Shown here piece after piece: positions 9,616-18,933 of a stretch of DNA of 34,201 bases. Position 1 is the stretch's first letter; each line of letters opens with the position of its first letter. A program made the translations under genes and the position numbers. The stretch comes from a virus. The DNA is taken from the IMG/VR virus record IMGVR_UViG_3300047383_000085, positions 1 to 34,201 of that record; one strand, given 5' to 3'. The notes beneath the pieces are model-generated. The model saw only the letters and a list, made by a program, of their open reading frames with translations, ran no database searches and was not told the origin of the DNA.

Positions 9616-10092
9616 ATGCAGTTGGAAGAATTAATGCAAACTCTTAACTATGCCAAGAAAGGCAGGGGTAGAGATTTTTTAATTCAACAACGCATGAAAA
9701 ATCAAGATCCTATGAATTTACAGAACATGGATGTTTTGCAAAAACAAAAAGGATTGCCATTTGTTGATAGAGTTTTAGAACCAGGTAAATATCCTACTCC
9801 ATCATTACTTGATGATGGCAAGATGCAAACACATCTCATGTCAGCAGAACAAGATGATGAGGGTAACTGGTTTGTATTTCCAAATGTTATAATGCAAAAA
9901 GGTAAATATAAAAAATTTAAAACTGTTAATGCGGCAATGAAAAATGCTAAAAAAACAGGCAACCTTATTTCTTTTGGTAAAGGAGAAAATGCAAAACAAA
10001 AAGCATTAAATTTTTCCGCTAATTATAAGCCAGAAGAATTTAAAGAATTTTATAAGGGCGTACAAGAAAAAACAGGCGGACTGTTAAACTAG
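9616..10092 (+). CDS. Hypothetical 158-aa Lys-rich protein between TerL and portal
   Basis: ORF tightly packed between TerL and the portal gene. No motif recognised. Confidence 0.6.
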   Translation: MQLEELMQTLNYAKKGRGRDFLIQQRMKNQDPMNLQNMDVLQKQKGLPFVDRVLEPGKYPTPSLLDDGKMQTHLMSAEQDDEGNWFVFPNVIMQKGKYKKFKTVNAAMKNAKKTGNLISFGKGENAKQKALNFSANYKPEEFKEFYKGVQEKTGGLLN

Positions 10093-10101
10093 GTAAAATA
10101 A

Positions 10102-12249
10102 ATGGCAAAAGATTACGAAGACAAAATGGAAGATGTGGTTAGTTCTGAAACTGACATGGAGCATCTTGCTGGTGTTATTAAATCAGAGATGGATGATGCA
10201 AAAGATTTCATTCATCAAGTGGGTGCAGAGCGAGCAGAATCTACAGAATATTATTTAGGTGAGCAACCACAAGCACAATCTAGCATGCAGTCTGAATTTG
10301 TTTCGACTGATGTTAGAGATAGCATTTTGTTTATGCTTCCATCTATCATGCGTACATTCTTTGGCACTAAAAAGATTGTTGAATTTGTACCGCATGGTCC
10401 AGAAGATATCCCTGTTGCCGAGCAACAAACTAACTATGTTAATTACATCATTCAAGAAAAAAACCAAGGCTTTCAAGTTTTATACGATGCGTTTAAAGAT
10501 GCGTTGGTTAGAAAGAGTGGTTTTGTCAAAGTCTTTTGGGATGATTCTATTTTAGCATCTACCAGCGAATACACAGACTTAGATCCTGTTTCATATCAAG
10601 CCTTAGTGCTTGATCCTAATGTAGAGGTTGTTAAAGAATCTGTCACCATGGAAATGATGACCCAGGTTGATCCTCTGTCTGGCGAAGAAGTAACACAAGA
10701 GATTCCTGCTAAGTACGATGTAACCATTCGTAGAGTTAAAGCCAAAGATCAAGTGTGTATTGAATCCATACCACCCGAAGAAGTTTTAATTTCACGCAAC
10801 GCGCGCGATCTTGAATCTGCATCTTATGTCGCGCACCGCATGATTAAATCTGTTTCTGATTTGGTTGCTATGGGTTATGACCAAGACGAAATAGAACAAT
10901 ACGCAACCCAAAGCTCAAGCGCGGTTGACCCAGAAGCCTTTGATGAGATAGAAGCAAGAAATCCATTTGACAACATGGTGTACCCAGACAGAAATGATAC
11001 TGGGGCGAAAGAAGTTTTATATGTTGAACATTATCTTTTTTATGACTTTGATGGCGATGGCATTGATGAAAGAATTAGAGTTTGTACTGCGGGTGAAGGT
11101 GTGAATGTGTTGAATGTAGAACAATGGGATGATTTACCTATTGCTATGTTCTGCCCAGATCCTGAACCACATACTGCAATCGGTTCGTGTCCAGCGGATT
11201 ACTTAAAGCCTATCCAAGCTGCAAAATCCCAAATTATGCGAGATACCCTTGATTCGCTTGGACACTCTATCTTTCCTCGTATGGCTGTTGTTGAAGGTCA
11301 AGTCAATATTGACGATGTACTCAATACTGATATCGGACAGCCCATTCGAGTTCGCGCCCCTGGGATGGTTCAACCCTTTACAGTACCCTTCGCTGGTAAA
11401 GAGGCTTTCCCTGTTCTTGGATACCTCGATGAAGCAAAAGAGAATAGGACTGGTGTGTCTAAAGCCTCTGCTGGCTTAAATGCAGATGCTTTGCAATCAA
11501 GCACCAGTGCAGCTGTGTCCGCTACCATGTCAGGAGCGCAAGGCCGAATAGAAATTATTTGCAGACATTTTGCAGAGGGTGGACTCAAACAACTCTTTAA
11601 AATTACTAACAACTTAATTATCAAACATCAAAATGCACAAGATGTATTTAGACTAGAGGGTCAATTTATTCCTGTTGATCCTAGATACTGGGAATCAGAT
11701 AAAGACATGGTTGTTAATGTGGCTATCTCTAAATCTTCTGATGAAGAGAAGTTTGCAATACTTGCACAGCTTGCAGGCAAACAAGAACAAATCATGCAAA
11801 CTCTTGGGCCAAGCAATCCATTGGTATCCATGCAACAATATTCTAATACTTTGACTCGCATGATCGAGATGGCTGGATTTAAAGATCCACAAGCGTTTAT
11901 TAATACGCAAGTACCACCTATGCCTCCGCAACCGCCTGAGTCACAACAACCTGATGCAGCTACCATGCTCGCACAAGCAGAAGCTATGAAAGCGCAAAAC
12001 CAAGCGCAGAAAGCTATCATTGATGCTGAGACTGATCGCATGAAGATCATTATGGATGATGATAGAAACAGAGATGAGACAGAAGCGCAGATTAGACTTA
12101 AAGCAGCAGAATTAACTGCTAAGTATGGCGCACAAGTCAACATTGCAGAGATAAATGCTATCATGGAGCGTGACCGAGAAAACATTAGGCAAACTGCAAA
12201 AGATCAAGCTCAAGGACTATTTACTGGCAATGGCAATCAAACTATATAA
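10102..12249 (+). CDS. Portal protein
   Basis: 715 aa, immediately after TerL. It has a long C-terminal Ala/Gln/Glu-rich helical tail (AEAMKAQNQAQKAIIDAETDRMK...) like P22-type portal barrels. Confidence 0.85.
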   Translation: MAKDYEDKMEDVVSSETDMEHLAGVIKSEMDDAKDFIHQVGAERAESTEYYLGEQPQAQSSMQSEFVSTDVRDSILFMLPSIMRTFFGTKKIVEFVPHGPEDIPVAEQQTNYVNYIIQEKNQGFQVLYDAFKDALVRKSGFVKVFWDDSILASTSEYTDLDPVSYQALVLDPNVEVVKESVTMEMMTQVDPLSGEEVTQEIPAKYDVTIRRVKAKDQVCIESIPPEEVLISRNARDLESASYVAHRMIKSVSDLVAMGYDQDEIEQYATQSSSAVDPEAFDEIEARNPFDNMVYPDRNDTGAKEVLYVEHYLFYDFDGDGIDERIRVCTAGEGVNVLNVEQWDDLPIAMFCPDPEPHTAIGSCPADYLKPIQAAKSQIMRDTLDSLGHSIFPRMAVVEGQVNIDDVLNTDIGQPIRVRAPGMVQPFTVPFAGKEAFPVLGYLDEAKENRTGVSKASAGLNADALQSSTSAAVSATMSGAQGRIEIICRHFAEGGLKQLFKITNNLIIKHQNAQDVFRLEGQFIPVDPRYWESDKDMVVNVAISKSSDEEKFAILAQLAGKQEQIMQTLGPSNPLVSMQQYSNTLTRMIEMAGFKDPQAFINTQVPPMPPQPPESQQPDAATMLAQAEAMKAQNQAQKAIIDAETDRMKIIMDDDRNRDETEAQIRLKAAELTAKYGAQVNIAEINAIMERDRENIRQTAKDQAQGLFTGNGNQTI

Positions 12250-12403
12250 CCTAGAAGTGTTAGTTGACGATTTAGTTTATGTCGGTAGTGATATTAGAGC
12301 CAAAAGCCAAGAAGATGCAGTTAGAATACTTGGTATTATCTCAGGTGGTGAAGTAACCGAGGATTCAGAAGTATTAAGCTGTGAGGAGAAAACTTTACAC
12401 TAA
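12230..12403 (+). CDS. Hypothetical acidic 57-aa protein
   Basis: ATG at 12230 lies inside the portal 3' end. TAATG junction with the next gene. The start is uncertain. Confidence 0.4.
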   Translation: MAIKLYNLEVLVDDLVYVGSDIRAKSQEDAVRILGIISGGEVTEDSEVLSCEEKTLH

Positions 12404-12675
12404 TGGCAATTACATACAGAGGCGAAAGGTTTAGCGGTTATAACAAACCCAAAAGAACACCTAATCACAAAACAAAATCACACGCAGTTTTAGCCAAGGT
12501 TGGTGATATCATAAAACTTATACGCTTTGGTCAACAGGGTGTTAGTGGTGCTGGTAAAAATCCCCAGTCTGCAAAAGGTAAAGCCAGAAGAAAATCATTT
12601 AAGGCTAGACACGCTAAAAATATTTCTAAAGGAAAATTGTCAGCAGCTTATTGGGCTGATAAAGTAAAGTGGTAA
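12403..12675 (+). CDS. Small basic protein (90 aa)
   Basis: Lys/Arg-rich, with a C-terminal RRKSFKARHAKNISKGKLSAAYWADKVKW motif. First of four consecutive basic ORFs. Confidence 0.65.
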   Translation: MAITYRGERFSGYNKPKRTPNHKTKSHAVLAKVGDIIKLIRFGQQGVSGAGKNPQSAKGKARRKSFKARHAKNISKGKLSAAYWADKVKW

Positions 12676-12678
12676 ATT

Positions 12679-12867
12679 ATGAATAGAAAGTTTAAAAAAG
12701 TTCCGAAGACTAAGGGCGGTGTTCCAAAGAAATATGTTAGTGGAGCAAAAAACCCAAAGGCAAGAGAAGCAGAAATTAAAAAAACTTCTGCTTTATATAA
12801 GGCTGGTAAACTTACACCAGCTATGATGAATAGAATCGCAAAACAAAGGGCTAAAAGTGTCAAATAA
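12679..12867 (+). CDS. Small hyper-basic protein (62 aa)
   Basis: 20 Lys/Arg in 62 residues by direct count. Confidence 0.6.
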   Translation: MNRKFKKVPKTKGGVPKKYVSGAKNPKAREAEIKKTSALYKAGKLTPAMMNRIAKQRAKSVK

Positions 12868-13096
12868 ACAAGATGTTATAAACAAATATCACAAATCTAG
12901 TGGTATATCAAAAAGCACTTTAGGAAAAGTTTATCAACGAGGAATGGGTGCTTATTACTCTTCTGGTTCTCGTCCTGGACAAACACCGCAATCATGGGCT
13001 GCTGGTCGTGTAAGATCATTTGCTACAGGTAAAGGCGGTGCAAGAGAGGCAGATAAAGATTTATTAAGACCTAAAAAATCAAAAAAAAGGAGCTAA
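12857..13096 (+). CDS. Small basic protein (79 aa)
   Basis: VYQRGMGAYYSSGSRPGQTPQSWAAGRVRSFATGKGG core with a KKSKKRS tail. The start overlaps the upstream gene by 11 nt. Confidence 0.6.
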   Translation: MSNKQDVINKYHKSSGISKSTLGKVYQRGMGAYYSSGSRPGQTPQSWAAGRVRSFATGKGGAREADKDLLRPKKSKKRS

Positions 13097-13098
13097 TT

Positions 13099-13206
13099 AT
13101 GCCAATGGTAGGAAAAAGGAAATACTCATACACAAAAGCTGGTGTGAAAAAAGCAAAAGCTGCTGCTAAGAAGAGCGGTAAAAAAATGACTTATAAGAAA
13201 AAATAA
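13099..13206 (+). CDS. 35-aa H1-tail/protamine-like basic peptide
   Basis: Hand translation: MPMVGKRKYSYTKAGVKKAKAAAKKSGKKMTYKKK, 14 Lys/Arg in 35 residues. AGGAG RBS lies 7 nt upstream. Confidence 0.5.
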   Translation: MPMVGKRKYSYTKAGVKKAKAAAKKSGKKMTYKKK

Positions 13207-13227
13207 GTGAAGCCATCCTCGGCAAAA
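13196..13227. repeat. 32-bp perfect direct repeat, copy 1
   Basis: AGAAAAAATAAGTGAAGCCATCCTCGGCAAAA is identical to 13534-13565, checked base by base at an offset of 338 bp. Mismatches flank both ends. Confidence 0.95.
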
Positions 13228-13236
13228 ACCGAATGA
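13207..13236 (+). pseudogene. Duplicated, truncated 5' end of the nuclease gene at 13545
   Basis: GTG AAG CCA TCC TCG GCA AAA matches the first 7 codons of 13545..13922, then stops after 9 codons. The TGA overlaps the ATG of the ParB-like ORF. Confidence 0.55.
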
Positions 13237-13544
13237 CTCTTTATCAGATGATTAATAAACTTAAACAAGATATGAAAGAAAATCATCATAAAGATTGGCT
13301 TGGATGGGTAGCTAAAAATAAAGTTTTTAAATTAAAAACCATTCCTATAGACTCTGTAGCACCAGCAAATGGTTTGACACTTGACCAAAATAAGATAAAT
13401 AATATGACTAAAAGTGATTTGAGTAATGCTCCTGTTATTGTGGTTCATAAAGATGGCAACATTATTGATGGCAATCATAGACATTCAGCATTAAAGAAAC
13501 AAGGCGCTCAAACAATACAAGTTTACACAGGCGAGAAAAAATAA
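13233..13544 (+). CDS. Stand-alone ParB/Srx-fold (ParB N-terminal nuclease-like) domain protein
   Basis: PVIVVHKDGNIIDGNHRHSALKKQGAQTIQVY matches the ParBc core (P-x-V...DG-x-HR). 103 aa. It is bracketed by the 32-bp repeats. Confidence 0.7.
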   Translation: MTLYQMINKLKQDMKENHHKDWLGWVAKNKVFKLKTIPIDSVAPANGLTLDQNKINNMTKSDLSNAPVIVVHKDGNIIDGNHRHSALKKQGAQTIQVYTGEKK

Positions 13545-13565
13545 GTGAAGCCATCCTCGGCAAAA
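13534..13565. repeat. 32-bp perfect direct repeat, copy 2
   Basis: Identical to 13196-13227. It contains the ParB-like gene stop and the GTG start of the next gene. Confidence 0.95.
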
Positions 13566-13922
13566 GCCAAGGGTCGAAAACTACAGCAATGGGTTGTTGA
13601 TAAACTTGTTGCAATACTTGGTTTTGATCCTGAAGATTTAGAATCAAGACCTATGGGATCTTCTGGCGAAGATGTCATTATGGGCGTTCAATCACGCAAA
13701 CAATTCCCCTACTCAATCGAGTGCAAAAACCAACAAGCAGTTAATGTTTGGAAGGCTTATGAGCAATCTTGTACTAACTGTAAAGATTACGAGCCTTTAG
13801 TTATAATAAAACGAAACAATACTAAACCATTGGCATTAGTCGATGCAGAGTATTTTATTAAACTGCATAAGGATCAAGATGGAACAAGAACCGAAAATAG
13901 AGATACACCAACATCAGAATAA
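13545..13922 (+). CDS. PD-(D/E)XK nuclease, Holliday-junction-resolvase (Hjc)-like
   Basis: KGRKLQQWVVDKL...GSSGEDVIMG...YSIECKN gives a D...E-x-K arrangement with an N-terminal helix, as in archaeal-type resolvases. GTG start. Confidence 0.55.
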   Translation: MKPSSAKAKGRKLQQWVVDKLVAILGFDPEDLESRPMGSSGEDVIMGVQSRKQFPYSIECKNQQAVNVWKAYEQSCTNCKDYEPLVIIKRNNTKPLALVDAEYFIKLHKDQDGTRTENRDTPTSE

Positions 13923-14133
13923 AACTTGGTATAACTTAGCCGAGGGTTTTGATAAATGGCGAGTCTTTCCCAGATTGCTCATTACTTTATATGGTTATGC
14001 TTTCTATAAAACTACTGAATGGTTTATGACCTTACCTGATCCAACCAATTCTCAATCAGCATTTGTTTCTGTTATTGTGGGCGCAGGTGCTGCATGGTTT
14101 GGTTTGTATGTTGGCGGTTCACCTAAAAGATAA
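13879..14133 (+). CDS. Two-TM small membrane protein, holin/antiholin-like
   Basis: Hydrophobic segments RLLITLYGYAFY and AFVSVIVGAGAAWFGLYVGG. ATG at 13879 follows AAGGA. An alternative ATG at 13843 is possible. Confidence 0.5.
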   Translation: MEQEPKIEIHQHQNKTWYNLAEGFDKWRVFPRLLITLYGYAFYKTTEWFMTLPDPTNSQSAFVSVIVGAGAAWFGLYVGGSPKR

Positions 14134-14435
14134 TGACCGAAGCAAAAGTCAATGATAGGACTACCTTTAATATTTCTATTAGTTATCTAATACAAATTAT
14201 TCTTGCTATTGCTGCTTTTGTTTATGGTTATGCTTCTATCAGTGAACACATAGAAAAAAATGACACAGAAATAAAAAATTTACGAGCTAACCAAAATACA
14301 TATATTTTTCCTGATATTAGATTGTTAGAACAAAAGGTAATAGTCTTGGAAAAAGAAGTGTTGGTTTTACAAAAAGAAATAGAATTTCATAAAAAAGAAA
14401 TTCAAGGCATCAAAAAAGGTATTGAAAATGATTAA
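14133..14435 (+). CDS. N-terminal TM anchor plus coiled-coil protein
   Basis: ISYLIQIILAIAAFVYGYASI is followed by heptad-like LEQKVIVLEKEVLVLQKEIEFHKKEIQGIKK. Confidence 0.55.
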   Translation: MTEAKVNDRTTFNISISYLIQIILAIAAFVYGYASISEHIEKNDTEIKNLRANQNTYIFPDIRLLEQKVIVLEKEVLVLQKEIEFHKKEIQGIKKGIEND

Positions 14436-14784
14436 ACAAATAGCAAAAGACTTTTTTATTAAATGGCAACAGGCTTGTTATGTTTGCTTTCCTATGATGG
14501 TACAGGGCAACTTATTTGCTCTTACATTTGACCATTGGATTAAAGCAAACAAAACAGGAATTATTGCAGGTTTTGGAGCAGTTTTACTTGGCTATACTGT
14601 TCTTAAAAAATACAAAGATAAGAAATGGTTTCATGGAGTAACAATTGCAACAGCTTGTTTTGTTGGTGATCTAATGATTCACCCATCTCACTTTGCTGGT
14701 GTATTTGGCGAAGCTGCATTAACAGCTATAGCATCTGGACTCCTTGCCACTTACTTTGTTTACAAGCCAATTAAATTAAAATGA
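14428..14784 (+). CDS. Multi-pass membrane protein
   Basis: At least three hydrophobic stretches (GIIAGFGAVLLGYTVL, GVTIATACFVGDLMI, ALTAIASGLLATYFVY). The ATG at 14428 is preferred over the TTG at 14422. Confidence 0.55.
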   Translation: MIKQIAKDFFIKWQQACYVCFPMMVQGNLFALTFDHWIKANKTGIIAGFGAVLLGYTVLKKYKDKKWFHGVTIATACFVGDLMIHPSHFAGVFGEAALTAIASGLLATYFVYKPIKLK

Positions 14785-15161
14785 TAGACAAACTTATAGA
14801 ACCCGTCACTCACATACTTGACAAGTTTGTTGCAGATAAAGATTTAAAAGCTAAGTTAGATCACGAAATAAAAACACAGTTTCATAAAATTGATCTTGCA
14901 CAAATAGAAGTTAATAAAGTAGAGGCATCTCATAGATCTATTTTTGTAGCTGGTTGGAGGCCTTGTTGCGGTTGGATATGTGCCATTGCACTTGGTTATC
15001 ACTTTGTTTTACAACCAATTATCTTATTTGTTTTATCGTTATATGACTTGCAATATCAACTACCTGAGTTTGACATGGGTGCATTACTTTATGTCTTAGG
15101 CGGTATGTTAGGTCTTGGTGGATTAAGAAGTTATGAAAAGTCAAAAGGTTTGACCAAATGA
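14781..15161 (+). CDS. Holin, GTA-type 3TM family-like
   Basis: LAQIEVNKVEASHRSIFVAGWRPCCGWICAIALGYHFVLQPI matches the conserved N-x-x-EA...F-x-x-GWRP-x-x-GW core of the '3TM holin for gene-transfer release' family. It lies directly upstream of the endolysin (ATGA overlap). Confidence 0.7.
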   Translation: MIDKLIEPVTHILDKFVADKDLKAKLDHEIKTQFHKIDLAQIEVNKVEASHRSIFVAGWRPCCGWICAIALGYHFVLQPIILFVLSLYDLQYQLPEFDMGALLYVLGGMLGLGGLRSYEKSKGLTK

Positions 15162-15532
15162 GTGATTGGAAGAATTTTAAGCTAGATGAGTTTAAATGTA
15201 AGCATTGTGGTGAAAATGAGATTGAATATGAGTTAATAGATAAGTTACAATCACTAAGAGAGGACTTAGGTTTTCCATTTATTATTTCTTCTGGTTACAG
15301 ATGCGAACATCACCCAGTAGAAAAAAAGAAAAGTAAGCCAGGCACTCACAATTTAGGTATTGCAGTCGATATTCGTTGCAGTCACAAAGAAGCATTACAA
15401 ATAGTATCCGCAGCAGAGGGTTACGGATTTACAGGAATTGGAGTTAATCAAAAAGGCAATGGAAGATTTATACACCTCGATATCGCAAAAGCTACGCATG
15501 ATCGTCCAAGGCCTCATATCTGGAGCTATTGA
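15158..15532 (+). CDS. Endolysin, peptidase M15 (zinc D-Ala-D-Ala carboxypeptidase-like) family
   Basis: FKLDEFKCKHCG...LREDLGFPFIISSGYRCEHHP...THNLGIAVDI...GRFIHLDI gives the H...D...H zinc-ligand layout of M15A peptidases. Confidence 0.8.
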   Translation: MSDWKNFKLDEFKCKHCGENEIEYELIDKLQSLREDLGFPFIISSGYRCEHHPVEKKKSKPGTHNLGIAVDIRCSHKEALQIVSAAEGYGFTGIGVNQKGNGRFIHLDIAKATHDRPRPHIWSY

Positions 15533-15538
15533 TTTCTA

Positions 15539-15778
15539 ATGGAACTTTCATTCTATGTAGTTTGGAATATGCTTGTAACTTTGGTGATAGCACCATTGTT
15601 CTACTCCATACGAAAAAATGAAAACGAAGCAAAAAGGATTGACATATTAGTGAATAAAACAAGAGAAGAAATAGCTAGAGACTATTTGACTAGAAATGCT
15701 CACAATGTTGAATATTCAAGATTAATGGACAAAATAGACAAACTTGATGCTAAAATAGATAAACTAATTACTGAATAA
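15539..15778 (+). CDS. N-terminal TM plus coiled-coil protein, i-spanin-like architecture
   Basis: FYVVWNMLVTLVIAPLFYSI followed by a charged helical region. It sits after the endolysin. I found no embedded lipobox ORF in the alternative frames. Confidence 0.5.
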   Translation: MELSFYVVWNMLVTLVIAPLFYSIRKNENEAKRIDILVNKTREEIARDYLTRNAHNVEYSRLMDKIDKLDAKIDKLITE

Positions 15779-15780
15779 TT

Positions 15781-16644
15781 ATGGCAATAGGAATACCAGG
15801 GCAATTACCAGGACAATCAATGGCAGGGCCAGTCGCAACTGGTCAAGCATATGCACAACAAATAGCTGGTGGTATGCCAATGGAACAAGTCATTGCACCA
15901 GGCGTTAGTTATTCTCCTGAACAAGCGGGTGGTTATACACAAAAAGATTTAGATATGATAGCAGCAGGCCCAGCTCCTGTTATGCCTGTAGCGCCTACAA
16001 CTGGTGAGGTTGCAACAATAGAAGATCAGATGCCTTATGCACCACCTGGTGTATCAGAGCCAACTAGATTTATGCCTTTTCTGCAAAATTTAGATTTTAG
16101 TGGTTTGCCAAGGTATGAAGATATTAGAGATATAAGAGGTGTTGAAGATATTACACCAACATTATTTGATATTGATGTAGAAGAAATGCTTAAAGATATA
16201 GACACAAAAAAATTTGAAGACATAGATTTAACGGGTATTGATATACCAGCAATACCACAAGTACCAGTTATGCCTACAGTTCCAGTAATACAACAACCAA
16301 TAACGCCATCAATACCACAAGTTCCTGTAATGCCTGAAGTTCCTGTCATGCCTACAGCACCAGTTTTTAAAGAACCAATGCCATTTGTTTCAGAAATACA
16401 AAACATGCCCATGAACTTTACTGGATTACCTCAAATGCCAGTAATGCCAAATATTCCAGTCATGCCTCAATTACCAATTGTGCCACAACCGATAGTGCCA
16501 CAACCAATTCAGCCAATGAACTTTACTAGATTATCTAACTTACCAGTTTCTAATTTTGTCCAGCCTAGCGTTGAAGAGATTGTATCTCCAATTAGTAGAG
16601 GCAGAACATTACCACAAACACCAAGAGGATTATTTGGTTTATAA
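15781..16644 (+). CDS. Pro/Val/Met-rich repeat protein (287 aa)
   Basis: Repeated IPQVPVMP(T/E)VPV, LPQMPVMPNIPVMPQLPIVPQPIVPQPIQP. The middle is acidic. Confidence 0.7.
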   Translation: MAIGIPGQLPGQSMAGPVATGQAYAQQIAGGMPMEQVIAPGVSYSPEQAGGYTQKDLDMIAAGPAPVMPVAPTTGEVATIEDQMPYAPPGVSEPTRFMPFLQNLDFSGLPRYEDIRDIRGVEDITPTLFDIDVEEMLKDIDTKKFEDIDLTGIDIPAIPQVPVMPTVPVIQQPITPSIPQVPVMPEVPVMPTAPVFKEPMPFVSEIQNMPMNFTGLPQMPVMPNIPVMPQLPIVPQPIVPQPIQPMNFTRLSNLPVSNFVQPSVEEIVSPISRGRTLPQTPRGLFGL

Positions 16645-16911
16645 ATGTCAGTCACACACGAAGAAGTAGTTAAAGCAGCAGAAGCCGAAAGAATTTTAAA
16701 TTCTGATGTCTTTAAAGAAGCAATCGAAAATCTTAAAAATGAATACATAACTCATTGGTTAAATTCTCGTGGCATCGATGATGTTGCGGTTAGAGAAGAC
16801 TTCCACAGATCCTTGTTACTTCTTCCTGAAGTAGAAAGACACTTACGTATCATGGCTGAGAAAGGTAAACTCACAAAAGCCAACATAAACAAAATTCGTA
16901 ACATAGCCTAA
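16645..16911 (+). CDS. Hypothetical 88-aa helical protein upstream of the scaffold gene
   Basis: TAAATG junction with the upstream gene. No motif recognised. Confidence 0.6.
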   Translation: MSVTHEEVVKAAEAERILNSDVFKEAIENLKNEYITHWLNSRGIDDVAVREDFHRSLLLLPEVERHLRIMAEKGKLTKANINKIRNIA

Positions 16912-16972
16912 AACTTTCCCTTTTATACATTATTGGTTTAAAATATCCCTAAATACAAAATAGGAGTATTTT

Positions 16973-17980
16973 ATGAGCAATAACGGAAAACCGACTGCTT
17001 TACAAACCGAAGGTCAAAAGGCAACCTCAGCGTTTGAAAGTTTCTTAGCCCCTGAAGAGGATACGCAAGAAGAAGCAGTCATAGAGGAAGCTGAAAGCAT
17101 TGAACCTGAGATCGATGAATTAGAAGAACAAGACGAGGAATATACCGAAGAGCTTGTCGATGAAGAAGAACTCGAATTTGATGATGAAGAAGATGGTGAA
17201 GAAGAAACGGAAGTTGAAGAGGTAGAAGAGCAACCCGTCTATAGAGTCACAGTTGATGGCGAAGAGATAGAGGTCACGCAGGACGAACTCCTTAATGGTT
17301 ATTCACGCCAACAAGATTATACGAGGAAGACACAGGAACTTGCCAATCAAAGAAAAACGATTGAGCAACAAGCCCAAGAACTTGCTCAAAGAGATGCGAT
17401 TTACGCACAGTTGTTACCGAAGATGGAAGCCCAATTACAGGGCGAATTGGTAAACGAACCAGATTGGGATAGTTTATACAATGATGATCCGATAGCATTT
17501 GTACGCGAAAAACAAATCTGGGATGAAAAGAAAGAAAAGCTAAAAGCTGCTGAGGCTGAACAGCAAAGACTTCAACAAGAAGCCTACGCAAAACAGCAAG
17601 AGCAAATTGCACAACAAGTGCAAGAAGGTCAGCAAAAAATTCTTGAAATCATACCAGAATGGAAAAATGCAGAGGTTGCTCAAAAAGAGAAACTAGCAAT
17701 TCGCGACTATGGTATTAATGTCTTGGGGTATTTGCCTCAAGAAATGGATGCAATTTATGACTATCGTGCTTTACTTGGTTTAAGAAACGCATGGTTAAAC
17801 TCCAAAACAGTTGAAGCCACGAAGAAGAAACCAACACAAAAAGCACCTGCAAGAGTAGCCCGACCTGGAACAACTACCAGAAAAAAATCGGTAGCACCAG
17901 CGAAAAGAGCAAAACAGGTTTTAGCAAAAACTGGAAAAGTCCAGGATGCTGCTAAAGTTTTTGAACAATTTTTAAAATAA
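16973..17980 (+). CDS. Scaffolding protein (putative)
   Basis: Extremely acidic N-terminal third, Gln/Glu/Lys-rich coiled-coil middle and basic C-terminus. It lies immediately upstream of the major capsid gene with a strong TAGGAGTAT RBS. Confidence 0.65.
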   Translation: MSNNGKPTALQTEGQKATSAFESFLAPEEDTQEEAVIEEAESIEPEIDELEEQDEEYTEELVDEEELEFDDEEDGEEETEVEEVEEQPVYRVTVDGEEIEVTQDELLNGYSRQQDYTRKTQELANQRKTIEQQAQELAQRDAIYAQLLPKMEAQLQGELVNEPDWDSLYNDDPIAFVREKQIWDEKKEKLKAAEAEQQRLQQEAYAKQQEQIAQQVQEGQQKILEIIPEWKNAEVAQKEKLAIRDYGINVLGYLPQEMDAIYDYRALLGLRNAWLNSKTVEATKKKPTQKAPARVARPGTTTRKKSVAPAKRAKQVLAKTGKVQDAAKVFEQFLK

Positions 17981-17997
17981 TTTTATAGGTAAATATA

Positions 17998-18933
17998 ATG
18001 GCTAAAGTAACAAACGCATTTGATACATACAGCGCGACTTCAGACAGAGAAGATTTAAGTAATATCATTTACAACATCTCTCCAATGCAAACTCCGTTTA
18101 TGTCATCAATTGGAAAAAGAAATATTAATAATGTTGTCTTTGATTGGCAAACAGAAGTATTAGCAACTCCAGTTGCTACTGGTGAACTAGAAGGTTTTGA
18201 ACTTTCAAGATCTGCTTCAGTTGCAACAACCAGAGTTAGCAATGTTGCTATGATTTCAAAAAGAGATGCAACTGTATCAGGCTCACAAGAGTCTTCAGAC
18301 CCTGCTGGTAAGAGATCAGAAATGGCTCACCAACTAGCTATCATGTCTAAAGCTCTCAAGAGAGATATGGAAGAAGCTCTTTGTCAAAATGGCGACAAAA
18401 CAACTGGTAACGCTACAACTGCTCGTGTAACTGGTGGTTTCGAGTCTTGGATTACATCCAACGATTCAAGAGGAACTGGCGGTGCATCAACAGGTGGCGG
18501 TGCTGCTCCAACTGATGGAACTCAAAGAGATCTAACAGAAGATCTTTTAAAAGATGTTTTACAACTTTGTTTTGAAAATGGTGGCGAACCATCAATGGCT
18601 ATTTGTGGCCCACATAACAAACAAGTAATCTCTGGTTTCACAGGTAGAACTCAAGCAAGACAATTTGTTGACTCTAATACTGTTGAAGCATCAGTATCTA
18701 TCTATTCATCTGACTTTGGTGAACTCAAAATCGTTCCATCAAACAGATCAAGAGAAAGATCTTTACTGTTGGTTGATCCTGAATTTGCAAAAGTATCTTA
18801 CTTGCGTGATTTCAAAACAGTTGACATTGCTACAATAGGCGATGCAATGACCAAAATGATCGTGGTTGAGTATGGATTAGAAGTATCCAACGAAGCTGCT
18901 CATGGTATCGTTGCTGACCTTAATGTAAGTTAA
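17998..18933 (+). CDS. Major capsid protein (HK97 fold, SU10/DUF5309-like)
   Basis: The N-terminus FDTYSATSDREDLSNIIYNISPMQTPFMSSIG is the family signature. 311 aa, followed by a strong terminator. Confidence 0.85.
   Translation: MAKVTNAFDTYSATSDREDLSNIIYNISPMQTPFMSSIGKRNINNVVFDWQTEVLATPVATGELEGFELSRSASVATTRVSNVAMISKRDATVSGSQESSDPAGKRSEMAHQLAIMSKALKRDMEEALCQNGDKTTGNATTARVTGGFESWITSNDSRGTGGASTGGGAAPTDGTQRDLTEDLLKDVLQLCFENGGEPSMAICGPHNKQVISGFTGRTQARQFVDSNTVEASVSIYSSDFGELKIVPSNRSRERSLLLVDPEFAKVSYLRDFKTVDIATIGDAMTKMIVVEYGLEVSNEAAHGIVADLNVS

What the first reader, a model, noticed from the sequence alone, without database searches (positions are those of the whole stretch)
12403..13206. Four consecutive hyper-basic miniproteins directly after the portal gene
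Four back-to-back ORFs of 90, 62, 79 and 35 aa are extremely Lys/Arg-rich. By direct count, 20 of 62 residues are basic in 12679..12867 and 14 of 35 in 13099..13206. The last one reads like a histone H1 tail or protamine (AGVKKAKAAAKKSGKKMTYKKK).

They lie between the portal gene and two nuclease-fold genes (ParB-like, Hjc-like), where packaged or ejected proteins are usually encoded. A dedicated set of DNA-coating or charge-neutralising proteins is plausible but undescribed. They might condense the genome, protect entering DNA from host nucleases, or act on the host nucleoid.

Together with 13233..13922, this 1.7-kb block is my best candidate for a functional system not explained by standard head, tail or lysis roles.
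Basis: partly seen in the sequence, partly recalled or inferred. Interest (0 to 1): 0.7.

Follow-up and report, generated by a model that had tools for sequence, protein, structure and literature searches.

The report
Mosaic array of tiny, highly basic phage proteins
Four real, conserved genes for very small, strongly positively charged proteins follow the portal gene of an abundant marine phage; they belong to a widespread interchangeable set of such genes that probably travel inside the phage head with the DNA, though nobody has shown this.

Summary
Four tightly packed ORFs of 90, 62, 79 and 35 aa have 23-40% Lys+Arg and net charges of +14 to +20. All four are under purifying selection.

They are not a fixed four-gene system, and they are not tied to the ParB-like or PD-(D/E)XK genes. 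In 80 related contigs the stretch after the portal is a mosaic array of 2-7 hyperbasic miniproteins. Every complete array has exactly one of ORF1-type or an 85-aa alternative. It also has exactly one of a 48-aa family, the ORF2+ORF3 pair, or the split DUF5872 pair. ORF4-type and others are optional. The ParB-like gene is a singleton insertion flanked by a 35-nt duplication.

The same families sit together in unrelated phages. ORF1's fold is fused to ICP1's prohead protease and to large proteins in internal-virion, crAss cargo-position and T4 head/neck gene blocks. ORF3 (DUF5824) shares polypeptides with it.

Best reading (about 0.45): late proteins packaged in the head with the DNA, like T4 internal proteins. 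No virion or DNA-binding data exist, and no known fold was found.

The parts
10102..12249 (+). Portal gene (SU10-type), the upstream anchor of the locus
   Evidence: Pfam SU10_portal 2e-189; phrog_1216. Relatives at 73-99% identity were used to define the locus.
12155..12403 (+). ORF0: small acidic protein (82 aa as listed, net -4). It is conserved directly after the portal, and its stop overlaps ORF1's ATG (TAATG).
   Evidence: Found in 72 of the 80 related loci plus the window (cluster 0). No family match. The true start may be the internal Met near 12230.
12403..12675 (+). ORF1: 90 aa, net +20. 'Slot-1' protein of the array and a folded domain of a very large virus family (phrog_7595).
   Evidence: phrog_7595 1e-39. 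151 phage records. 1461 clusters at 50% identity. Invariant N14, P16, K25, V29, K32, F42, G43, F66, A68, R69, W84, W90. Mutually exclusive with cluster c8 (35 to 16, never both, never neither).
12679..12867 (+). ORF2: 62 aa, net +18. First half of the 'slot-2' pair, always found with ORF3.
   Evidence: phrog_38321 1e-10. 13 of 13 co-occurrence with ORF3. Synonymous to non-synonymous 1327 to 202. A homologue sits directly before the DUF5824 gene in Prochlorococcus phage P-HS2. A natural in-frame ORF2-ORF3 fusion exists (P0360).
12857..13096 (+). ORF3: 79 aa, net +14, GTG start. Pfam DUF5824 (C-terminal half of the model); a small helical bundle.
   Evidence: PF19141 3e-13, 50.4 bits against a cut-off of 25. 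AlphaFold pLDDT 83, pTM 0.71, helices 4-15, 19-36, 44-57, 62-65. Foldseek finds only other DUF5824 proteins.
13099..13206 (+). ORF4: 35 aa, net +14, Lys/Ala-rich. An optional 'slot-3' member.
   Evidence: phrog_33179 1e-3. Cluster of 9: 8 related loci plus the window, with a conserved MP[KM]VGK..[FY]SYT..GMKKAKAAAKK.GKKV[ST]YKKK pattern. Synonymous to non-synonymous 307 to 87.
13196..13230 (.). Left copy of a 35-nt direct repeat (end of ORF4 plus a truncated start of the PD-(D/E)XK gene)
   Evidence: 34 of 35 identical to 13534-13568. Relatives show the uninterrupted junction.
13233..13544 (+). ParB/Srx-like gene (DGNHRH motif). A singleton cassette insertion, not part of the basic-protein set.
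   Evidence: phrog_8071 2e-6; Pfam ddrB-ParB 19.7 bits, below the 27.6 cut-off. Absent from all 80 relatives.
13534..13568 (.). Right copy of the 35-nt direct repeat (end of the ParB-like gene plus the real start of the PD-(D/E)XK gene)
13545..13922 (+). Putative PD-(D/E)XK / RusA-like endonuclease. An optional neighbour that closes the array in some relatives.
   Evidence: phrog_244 5e-19; Pfam PDDEXK_15 E 0.008. tblastn finds it in only about 25 of the 80 related loci (10 members in the cluster).
14781..15778 (+). Lysis cassette (holin, M15-type endolysin, TM/coiled-coil protein) downstream of the array. Relevant to the lysis rival.
   Evidence: phrog_3427 holin 8e-28; phrog_894 endolysin 1e-34. 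In many relatives it directly follows the array.

Best explanation
The four ORFs are late genes co-transcribed with the portal. They encode small polycationic proteins from a widespread viral guild. In this phage lineage the guild forms a mosaic array with three positions:
- One 'slot-1' protein: ORF1-type or an 85-aa alternative.
- One 'slot-2' unit: a 48-aa family, the ORF2+ORF3 pair, or the two DUF5872 halves.
- Optional extras such as ORF4.

The most likely mechanism is that the proteins are made with the head proteins and enclosed in the capsid with the DNA. There their positive charge binds and partly neutralises the genome, and they leave with it at infection. This is the way T4 internal proteins and T7 gp6.7 behave.

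Shown here: the genes are real, conserved and late. The array follows slot rules. The families co-localise in unrelated phages. The ORF1 and ORF3 folds are appended to head-associated or cargo-position proteins.

Inferred, not shown: packaging into the head, DNA binding, ejection, and any protective or compacting effect.
For: 1. Late head context in the window: portal, ORF0, ORF1-4 with 0-3 nt gaps; scaffold and major head genes lie downstream.
2. The ORF1 fold forms residues 184-261 of ICP1 gp125. The N-terminal part of gp125 is an XkdF-type prohead serine protease (Peptidase_S78_2, 2e-9), encoded between portal and scaffold.
3. About a third of the 150 best 50%-identity representatives are 200-2276 aa proteins that carry the fold, mostly at the extreme C-terminus. 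Their contexts:
   - directly after an unannotated 1176-aa gene, at the end of the structural operon of a SIO1/T7-like podovirus, where internal virion proteins lie in cobaviruses;
   - two genes after a Peptidase_S78 gene;
   - in a crAss-like contig after the ring-protein genes, in the block where crAss001 encodes packaged cargo (PMC10172136);
   - in a T4-like contig between gp23/prohead protease and gp13, next to a 1003-aa DUF5824 protein.
4. ORF3-like and ORF1-like domains share one polypeptide in Melnitz gene 18.
5. In siphoviruses KBS-S-2A and P-HS2 the homologues lie between the MuF minor head protein and scaffold/coat. In P-HS2 the order is ORF2-like, ORF3-like, one other basic protein, ORF1-like.
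6. In T7-like cyanophage P-SCSP1u the alternative slot-1 and slot-2 proteins (c8, +27; c2, +18) lie between the major capsid and tail tubular A genes.
7. Partner domains (weak ART-PolyVal match, NUDIX, LysM, protease) match those that Iyer et al. interpret as head-packaged effectors (PMC5512222, PMC9503650).
8. The strict one-of-each slot pattern with undetectably related alternatives suggests a required physical role rather than a sequence-specific enzyme.
Against: - There is no direct evidence that any family member is in a virion or binds DNA. No proteomic report was found.
- In the S-CBS2 record, neighbouring genes are labelled structural but the ORF1 homologue is not. This is a weak negative, because tiny Lys-rich proteins can escape tryptic mass spectrometry.
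- In cobaviruses, HMO-2011-type phages and pelagiphage HTVC111P the genes sit next to lysis genes. In this lineage the array abuts the lysis cassette.
- The ICP1 copy of the fold is not basic.
- The family also occurs in Nitrosopumilaceae spindle-shaped viruses, which lack HK97-type heads.
- Fusions to an NMNAT-like cytidylyltransferase and to NUDIX could be cytoplasmic enzymes.
- Summed array charge varies threefold (+36 to +105), so there is no fixed charge budget.
- The exclusivity counts are not corrected for shared ancestry.
- The ORF1 model is low-confidence, and neither model matches a known DNA-binding fold.
Confidence: 0.45

Rival explanations
1. Late cytoplasmic nucleic-acid binders that are not packaged. 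The proteins would coat or condense replicated phage DNA for packaging, compact the host nucleoid, or bind RNA or ribosomes. The ORF1 and ORF3 folds would act as nucleic-acid-targeting modules on enzymes.
For: - Extreme positive charge.
- A weak but repeatable similarity of ORF1 to the KOW region of chloroplast uL24 (E 0.09-0.1).
- Fusions to an NMNAT-like cytidylyltransferase and to NUDIX.
- Presence in archaeal spindle-shaped viruses without HK97 heads.
- Weak, non-significant Foldseek neighbours of ORF3 are mostly nucleic-acid-binding helical proteins.
Against: - It does not explain fusion to a prohead protease, or the positions in internal-virion, crAss cargo-position and T4 head/neck blocks.
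- The uL24 similarity is not significant, and the ORF1 model is too poor to test an SH3/KOW fold.
- The genes are always in late structural operons and never with replication genes on the same strand.
Confidence: 0.25
2. Lysis accessories. These would be cationic proteins that help breach the outer membrane or bind the cell wall at the end of infection, like the phiKT gp28 'disruptin'.
For: - Small and cationic.
- The array directly precedes the holin-endolysin cassette in many relatives.
- ORF1 or DUF5824 homologues follow lysozyme or spanin genes in CRP-207, P12053L, ICBM2 and HTVC111P.
- 5 of 52 fusion proteins carry LysM.
- The disruptin precedent: 56 aa, +7 (bioRxiv 10.1101/515445).
Against: - The proteins are not amphipathic. 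The maximum helical hydrophobic moment is 0.42-0.55, against 0.89 for LL-37, and only 14-20% of residues are large hydrophobics.
- Net charge is two to three times that of gp28.
- In siphoviruses and in P-SCSP1u the genes sit inside head/tail modules with no lysis gene in the stretches examined.
- The PHROG 'endolysin' hits came from a 2564-position giant-protein profile, not from a hydrolase domain next to the fold.
- The window also encodes a TM/coiled-coil protein after the endolysin that could serve as a spanin.
Confidence: 0.1
3. One reading: the four miniproteins together with the ParB-like and Hjc-like genes form one dedicated 1.7-kb functional system.
For: The genes are adjacent and on the same strand in the window. 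The P1 DdrB ParB-type domain is a known head-packaged protein (PMC5512222).
Against: - The ParB-like gene is absent from all 80 relatives and is bracketed by a 35-nt duplication of the ORF4/PD-(D/E)XK junction.
- The PD-(D/E)XK gene is optional and follows different basic proteins in different genomes.
- The four-ORF combination seen here occurs in no other locus examined.
Confidence: 0.03
4. Chance ORFs in an A-rich strand (AAA/AAG-rich sequence read as Lys), not genes.
For: The region has an AT skew of +0.24 and is A-rich. ORF4 is only 35 aa.
Against: - Third-codon-position changes dominate, with strong synonymous excess for all of ORF2-4.
- All four hit profile families.
- 0 of 2000 shuffles reproduce the pattern.
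- Homologues occur in distant phages.
Confidence: 0.01

Closest known systems
T4 internal proteins IPI, IPII, IPIII (and the polymorphic IP locus of T-even phages)
   Same: Small basic late proteins thought to sit with the DNA in the head and enter the cell with it. They are encoded in a locus that differs between related phages by swapping unrelated genes (own knowledge of the T4 literature). The window's array shows the same swap pattern.
   Different: - No sequence or profile similarity to any annotated internal head protein family.
- No N-terminal capsid-targeting sequence was looked for or is evident.
- The genes here follow strict slot rules.
- Packaging is not shown.
T7 gp6.7 / small head proteins of T7-like phages
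   Same: A small protein with a basic tail, encoded just before the head genes, present in the head and ejected (own knowledge; Kemp et al. 2005 is cited within PMC4819975). The c8 and c2 family members lie inside the head-tail gene block of T7-like cyanophage P-SCSP1u.
   Different: No detectable homology. Far higher charge density. Several families per genome.
Head-packaged effector and polyvalent proteins (MuF-, portal- or protease-fused; Iyer et al. 2017, 2022)
   Same: The ORF1 fold is fused to an XkdF-type prohead protease. It also co-occurs with a weak ART-PolyVal match, NUDIX and LysM in large late proteins. That work uses the same logic to infer packaging (PMC5512222, PMC9503650).
   Different: In the window the fold stands alone with no effector domain. 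The ORF1, ORF2 and ORF4 families have no Pfam model and were not found in those papers in my text searches.
Adenovirus core proteins VII, V and Mu; protamines and histone H1 tails
   Same: Polycationic proteins that neutralise and condense a packaged dsDNA genome (own knowledge). ORF4 resembles them in composition.
   Different: The resemblance is in composition only. ORF4 has no Pfam hit at all, and ORF1-3 none to a linker-histone or protamine family. ORF1 and ORF3 have conserved non-basic residues and predicted folds.
phiKT gp28 disruptin
   Same: A small cationic phage protein of unknown ancestry that can sit near lysis genes.
   Different: gp28 is amphipathic, +7, and sits inside the lysis cassette. 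ORF1-4 are not amphipathic, carry +14 to +20, and lie 1.6 kb upstream of the holin.
Pfam DUF5824 and DUF5872 (uncharacterised virus families)
   Same: ORF3 is a DUF5824 member. The alternative slot-2 pair in relatives is DUF5872 split into two genes.
   Different: These entries carry no function. ORF3 covers only the C-terminal half of the DUF5824 model, and ORF2 does not match the N-terminal half.

Membership tests
Pfam DUF5824 (PF19141), for ORF3 | Profile score above the curated gathering cut-off | tested here: met
   50.4 bits against a cut-off of 25, E 3e-13. Matches profile positions 63-125 of 127 only. All 120 listed homologues carry PF19141.
PHROG 7595, for ORF1 | Full-length profile match | tested here: met
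   E 1.2e-39, residues 2-90 on profile positions 6-96 of 96.
PHROG 38321 (ORF2) and PHROG 33179 (ORF4) | Profile match | tested here: inconclusive
   ORF2: E 1e-10, but only residues 1-44. ORF4: E 1e-3. tblastn of ORF2 against isolate phages found nothing; a local HMM found the P-HS2 homologue at 1e-9.
T4-type internal head proteins | Sequence or profile membership in an annotated internal head protein family | tested here: not met
   No such family among the Pfam or PHROG hits for any of the four ORFs at E up to 1.
T4-type internal head proteins | N-terminal capsid-targeting sequence removed by the prohead protease | not tested
   No prohead protease turned up among the window ORFs I scanned (9616-18933). 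The rest of the window was not scanned, and no cleavage motif was searched for.
T4-type internal head proteins | Present in purified virions and injected with the DNA | not testable with these tools
   No proteomic data were found for any family member.
Head-packaged effector / polyvalent-protein modules (Iyer et al.) | Fusion to a head protein (MuF, portal, capsid-processing protease), or a gene in the late packaging cluster | tested here: met
   The ORF1 fold is fused to the ICP1 XkdF-type protease. The window gene lies one small ORF (ORF0) after the portal. This applies to the ORF1 family only; for ORF3 the support is co-occurrence with ORF1 in single polypeptides.
Disruptin (phiKT gp28-like) | Amphipathic cationic helices | tested here: not met
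   Maximum 18-residue helical moment 0.42-0.55, against 0.89 for LL-37; 14-20% large hydrophobic residues.
Disruptin (phiKT gp28-like) | Gene inside the lysis cassette | tested here: not met
   In the window about 1.6 kb (ParB-like, PD-(D/E)XK and three further ORFs) separates ORF4 from the holin. In some relatives the array does abut the holin.
Disruptin (phiKT gp28-like) | Complements a spanin defect | not testable with these tools
   Needs the lambda Rz/Rz1 complementation assay.
Ribosomal protein uL24 / KOW domain, for ORF1 | Significant sequence or structural match to the KOW/SH3-like barrel | tested here: inconclusive
   E 0.09 (single sequence) and 0.096 (profile) to chloroplast uL24. 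AlphaFold pLDDT is 60.6, with two beta-hairpins then two helices. No Foldseek hit better than E 0.7.
Linker histone / protamine, for ORF4 | Profile membership | tested here: not met
   No Pfam family at E up to 1. The resemblance is compositional.
ParB/Srx superfamily, for 13233-13544 | Profile score above cut-off; catalytic-type DGxHR motif | tested here: inconclusive
   ddrB-ParB 19.7 bits, below the 27.6 cut-off. PHROG ParB-like 1.7e-6. A DGNHRH motif is present in the sequence.

The most novel reading that the evidence does not exclude
Many abundant aquatic viruses need a two-part set of interchangeable, unrelated polycationic miniproteins. These include marine podo-, sipho- and myoviruses, some freshwater phages and some archaeal spindle-shaped viruses. 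DUF5872, one of the guild families, is also annotated in a giant algal virus. The miniproteins would act as a protein counter-ion or 'mini-chromatin' for the packaged genome and escort it into the cell. The ORF1-type fold would also serve as a general tag that loads cargo enzymes into capsids.
Probability: 0.25. Interest if true: 0.75.

Novelty: new variant of a known kind. Interest (0 to 1): 0.55.

Why it matters
These proteins are very common. The ORF1 family alone has 1461 clusters at 50% identity and saturates an 8000-candidate search at 90%. It occurs in phages of SAR116, Roseobacter, Prochlorococcus, Synechococcus and Vibrio cholerae, and ORF3's DUF5824 family occurs in SAR11 phages, yet none of the families has an assigned function.

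If the proteins are packaged with the DNA, three things would follow:
- They would be a protein-based answer to how small marine phages neutralise genome charge and protect entering DNA.
- Their slot-wise replacement would mark a locus under diversifying pressure, comparable to the T4 internal-protein locus.
- The ORF1 fold would become a practical marker for predicting which large phage proteins are capsid cargo.

Cultured carriers already exist, including one with a solved virion structure (P-SCSP1u), so the question can be tested directly.

Tried and rejected
- **ORF1 structure.** The AlphaFold model with 40 close homologues was poor (pLDDT 60.6). Foldseek against the PDB gave nothing below E 0.7. 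The homologue searches returned only sequences at 77% identity or more, because the family saturates the candidate list.
- **ORF3 structure.** The model was good, but nothing in the PDB matched (best E 1.6). BFVD returned only other DUF5824 proteins.
- **PDB sequence and profile searches.** Only the sub-significant uL24 KOW match for ORF1, and nothing for ORF3.
- **ORF2 as the missing N-terminal half of DUF5824.** No Pfam hit for ORF2. A natural in-frame ORF2-ORF3 fusion exists, so the question stays open.
- **Homology between alternatives.** By eye, c1 and c8 ('RRKSFxAR...W') and the slot-2 alternatives looked related. hhalign gave no support (c1 to c8 probability 1.8%; all pairs below 40%).
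- Rejected: the summed net charge ranges from +36 to +105.
- **'Endolysin' partners of the ORF1 fold.** The PHROG label came from a 2564-position giant-protein profile that matched only a region next to the fold.
- **tblastn of ORF2 against isolate phages.** No match.
- **Literature.** DUF5824 gave no papers, and DUF5872 gave one bare listing. No virion proteomics covering these genes was found in the cobavirus, phiRIO-1, P-SCSP1u or MPP-C papers.
Full report
**1.

- ORF1: 12403-12675, 90 aa.
- ORF2: 12679-12867, 62 aa.
- ORF3: 12857-13096, 79 aa, GTG start, overlapping ORF2 by 11 nt.
- ORF4: 13099-13206, 35 aa.

Direct counts give K+R fractions of 0.26, 0.32, 0.23 and 0.40. Net charges are +20, +18, +14 and +14, and all pI values are above 10.6.

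The long + strand genes of the window average 11% K+R, with a maximum of 18%. The four ORFs rank 1, 2, 4 and 12 of 276 ORFs by charge density. None of 2000 shuffles of the region reproduced the pattern.

The ORFs are separated by 0-3 nt or overlap, with no convincing promoter or terminator inside. They therefore continue the portal operon.

Two corrections apply:
- A conserved acidic ORF0 (12155-12403) lies between the portal and ORF1.
- The downstream genes are a sub-threshold ParB/Srx-like protein and a PD-(D/E)XK/RusA-like endonuclease.

**2. They are real genes in known but uncharacterised families**

- ORF1 matches phrog_7595 at 1e-39.
- ORF3 matches Pfam DUF5824 at 3e-13, above the cut-off, but only over the C-terminal half of the model.
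- ORF2 matches phrog_38321 at 1e-10.
- ORF4 matches phrog_33179 at 1e-3.

In 80 related viral contigs (portal 73-99% identical), single-base codon changes are overwhelmingly synonymous. The ratios are 1327 to 202 for ORF2, 1376 to 236 for ORF3 and 307 to 87 for ORF4.

ORF1 has invariant non-basic residues (N14, P16, V29, F42, G43, F66, A68, W84, W90) across very distant homologues. It is therefore a folded domain with basic loops, not a low-complexity polycation.

AlphaFold gives ORF3 a confident three-to-four-helix bundle (pLDDT 83, pTM 0.71). ORF1 gets only a low-confidence model of two beta-hairpins followed by two helices (pLDDT 61).

**3. The locus is a mosaic array, not a four-gene system**

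I clustered all ORFs downstream of the portal in the 80 relatives. There were 51 loci, counting the window itself, whose array is closed by a non-array gene. Each has 2-7 hyperbasic miniproteins. The arrays obey these rules:
- Each has exactly one of c1 (ORF1 type, 35 loci) or c8 (an 85-aa protein of about +25, 16 loci). None has both and none has neither.
- Each has exactly one of three slot-2 units:
  - c2, a 48-aa protein beginning MPKGLYANIHAKRKRIKAGS (27 loci);
  - the ORF2+ORF3 pair (13 loci, always together);
  - the N-terminal DUF5872 half, c13, usually with the C-terminal half, c16 (11 loci; c16 present in 9 of them).
- ORF4-type (c18; 8 related loci plus the window), c7, c9, c30, c33 and others are optional.

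Profile-profile comparison finds no relationship between the alternatives. ORF1 allele identity is uncoupled from portal identity: L088 has 73% portal identity but 93% ORF1 identity, and L018 has 92% and 59%. This indicates recombination. These counts are not corrected for shared ancestry.

Summed net charge ranges from +36 to +105, and the window's array is +66. There is therefore no fixed charge budget.

**4. The nuclease-like neighbours are not part of the set**

The ParB-like gene is found in none of the 80 relatives. It is bracketed by a 34/35-identical 35-nt direct repeat at 13196-13230 and 13534-13568. This repeat duplicates the junction between the ORF4 stop and the PD-(D/E)XK start. 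Relatives L018, L021 and L022 show the uninterrupted junction.

The PD-(D/E)XK gene is present in only some loci and follows different basic proteins in different genomes.

**5. The same families travel together in unrelated viruses**

- ORF1 homologues occur in 151 isolate phage records. These include HMO-2011-type and SIO1-type podoviruses, cyanosiphoviruses, ICP1 and Aeromonas myoviruses, and Nitrosopumilaceae spindle-shaped viruses.
- In Prochlorococcus siphovirus P-HS2 the order after the MuF minor head protein ends with ORF2-like, ORF3-like (DUF5824), a c33-like protein and ORF1-like. Scaffold-like and coat-like genes follow.
- In KBS-S-2A the ORF1 homologue lies between MuF and scaffold/coat.
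- In CRP-207 and C72C1 it is followed by the two DUF5872 halves.
- In the T7-like cyanophage P-SCSP1u, c30-like, c8 (+27) and c2 (+18) genes lie between the major capsid and tail tubular A genes.
- c2 homologues are in 81 phage records, mostly T7-like cyanophages and pelagiphages.

**6. Domain fusions point to the capsid interior**

ICP1 gp125 is an XkdF-type prohead serine protease (Peptidase_S78_2, residues 37-160). It carries an ORF1-like domain at residues 184-261 and is encoded between portal and scaffold.

An exhaustive profile search found 1461 clusters at 50% identity. About a third of the top 150 are 200-2276 aa proteins with the fold, mostly at the extreme C-terminus. Their contexts are:
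- **P0317 (845 aa).** It has a weak ART-PolyVal match, LysM and the fold. It directly follows an unannotated 1176-aa gene, which I take to be an internal-virion-protein candidate from its size and position. It lies at the end of the structural operon of a SIO1/T7-like contig.
- **P0272.** It lies two genes after a Peptidase_S78 gene and is followed by miniproteins of +21 and +25.
- **P0336 (1691 aa).** It lies in a crAss-like contig after the ring-protein genes. In crAss001 this is where packaged cargo proteins are encoded (PMC10172136).
- **P0242.** It lies in a T4-like contig between gp23/prohead protease and gp13, next to a 1003-aa DUF5824 protein.

Melnitz gene 18 combines an NMNAT-like cytidylyltransferase, an ORF3-like domain and an ORF1-like domain in one chain.

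Iyer et al. use exactly these kinds of fusion and context to infer head packaging of ART, Nudix and other effectors (PMC5512222, PMC9503650).

**7. What argues against the head-internal reading, or leaves it open**

- No paper I could search reports any of these proteins in a virion or bound to DNA.
- In several podovirus groups the genes lie next to lysis genes. In this lineage the array abuts the lysis cassette, so a disruptin-like role must be considered.
- Against that role, the proteins lack amphipathic helices: the moment is 0.42-0.55, against 0.89 for LL-37. In siphoviruses and in P-SCSP1u they sit inside head/tail modules.
- The ICP1 copy of the fold is not basic.
- The family occurs in spindle-shaped archaeal viruses with other tiny basic ORFs beside it. 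The fold's partner may therefore be nucleic acid or something generic rather than an HK97 capsid wall.
- A weak uL24/KOW similarity (E about 0.1) is not significant.

**8. Verdict**

The best explanation (about 0.45) is that ORF1-4 are late, head-internal, DNA-associated polycations. They would be analogous to T4 internal proteins and T7 gp6.7, and are drawn from a pan-viral guild whose members replace one another slot by slot.

Rivals are unpackaged cytoplasmic nucleic-acid binders (about 0.25) and lysis accessories (about 0.1). The fixed 'system with nucleases' reading is refuted as a conserved unit.

The families are already catalogued as DUFs and PHROGs. The array architecture, the slot rules and the head-cargo associations of the ORF1 and ORF3 folds appear to be undescribed.

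Noticed in passing
window 13196-13230 and 13534-13568 (bracketing 13233-13544): A 35-nt direct repeat (34/35 identical) duplicates the junction between the ORF4 stop and the PD-(D/E)XK start on both sides of the ParB-like gene. Relatives L018, L021 and L022 show the empty site. This is a clean example of a single-gene cassette insertion. The left copy leaves a truncated start, MKPSSAKTE*.
   Followed up: yes
window 12155-12403: A small acidic ORF0 (net -4) is found directly after the portal in 72 of the 80 related loci, always just before the basic array. A similar pairing occurs in L097, where a 67-aa Cys-rich protein of net -22 follows miniproteins of +21 and +25. It may be a charge-matched partner or chaperone. 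No family match.
   Followed up: partly
window 13843-15778: The lysis cassette (holin 14781-15161, M15-type endolysin 15158-15532, TM/coiled-coil 79-aa protein 15539-15778) and several membrane-protein ORFs lie between the portal and the scaffold/major head genes (16973-18933). This is an unusual place for lysis genes. Relatives carry at least two alternative cassettes here (clusters 6-5-10, or 4-14).
   Followed up: partly
window 12857-12867; protein P0360: ORF3 starts at a GTG inside the end of ORF2 (11-nt overlap, +1 frame). One metagenomic homologue (P0360, 104 aa) reads the ORF2 C-terminus and ORF3 in a single frame. The pair is therefore sometimes one polypeptide, as DUF5872 is whole in Pfam's model but split into two genes in these phages.
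   Followed up: partly
L009 2490-3440 (Nitrosopumilaceae spindle-shaped virus, BK067786.1): An ORF1-family gene (ORF21) of the Cys-containing subtype (RKKSFRARHKCDTNPP...YWACKTW) sits in an archaeal spindle-shaped virus among several other tiny Lys-rich ORFs. The family therefore crosses between tailed phages and an unrelated virus morphotype.
   Followed up: partly
L011-L090, ORF1 against portal identities: ORF1 alleles fall into about three types (about 90%, 66-77% and 55-59% identity to the window). They are distributed independently of portal similarity, which indicates frequent recombination at this locus.
   Followed up: partly
L095 3137-3232 (P-SCSP1u, between the major capsid gene and PSCSP1u_00016): An unannotated 32-aa ORF matches the c30 miniprotein family (E 5e-12). 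It lies directly upstream of the c8 and c2 homologues, in a phage whose virion structure has been solved.
   Followed up: no
L007 3746-4219 (MW202701.1): A 157-aa gene annotated 'ribosomal L37ae protein family' sits between the ORF1 homologue and a c2 homologue in a freshwater podovirus. I did not check whether the annotation is sound.
   Followed up: no
relatives, cluster c11 (for example L058 6916-7011): One recurrent 31-37 aa ORF inside the arrays shows more non-synonymous than synonymous changes (515 to 214), with no third-position excess. It may not be coding, or it may evolve under different constraints.
   Followed up: no
L091 355-2307 (Melnitz gene 18; same architecture annotated 'cytidyltransferase' in HTVC008M): A 650-aa myovirus protein combines an NMNAT-like cytidylyltransferase domain with ORF3-like and ORF1-like domains. 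Another representative carries NUDIX. The NAD/ADP-ribose flavour of several partners (ART-like, NUDIX, NMNAT-like) could be a separate lead.
   Followed up: partly
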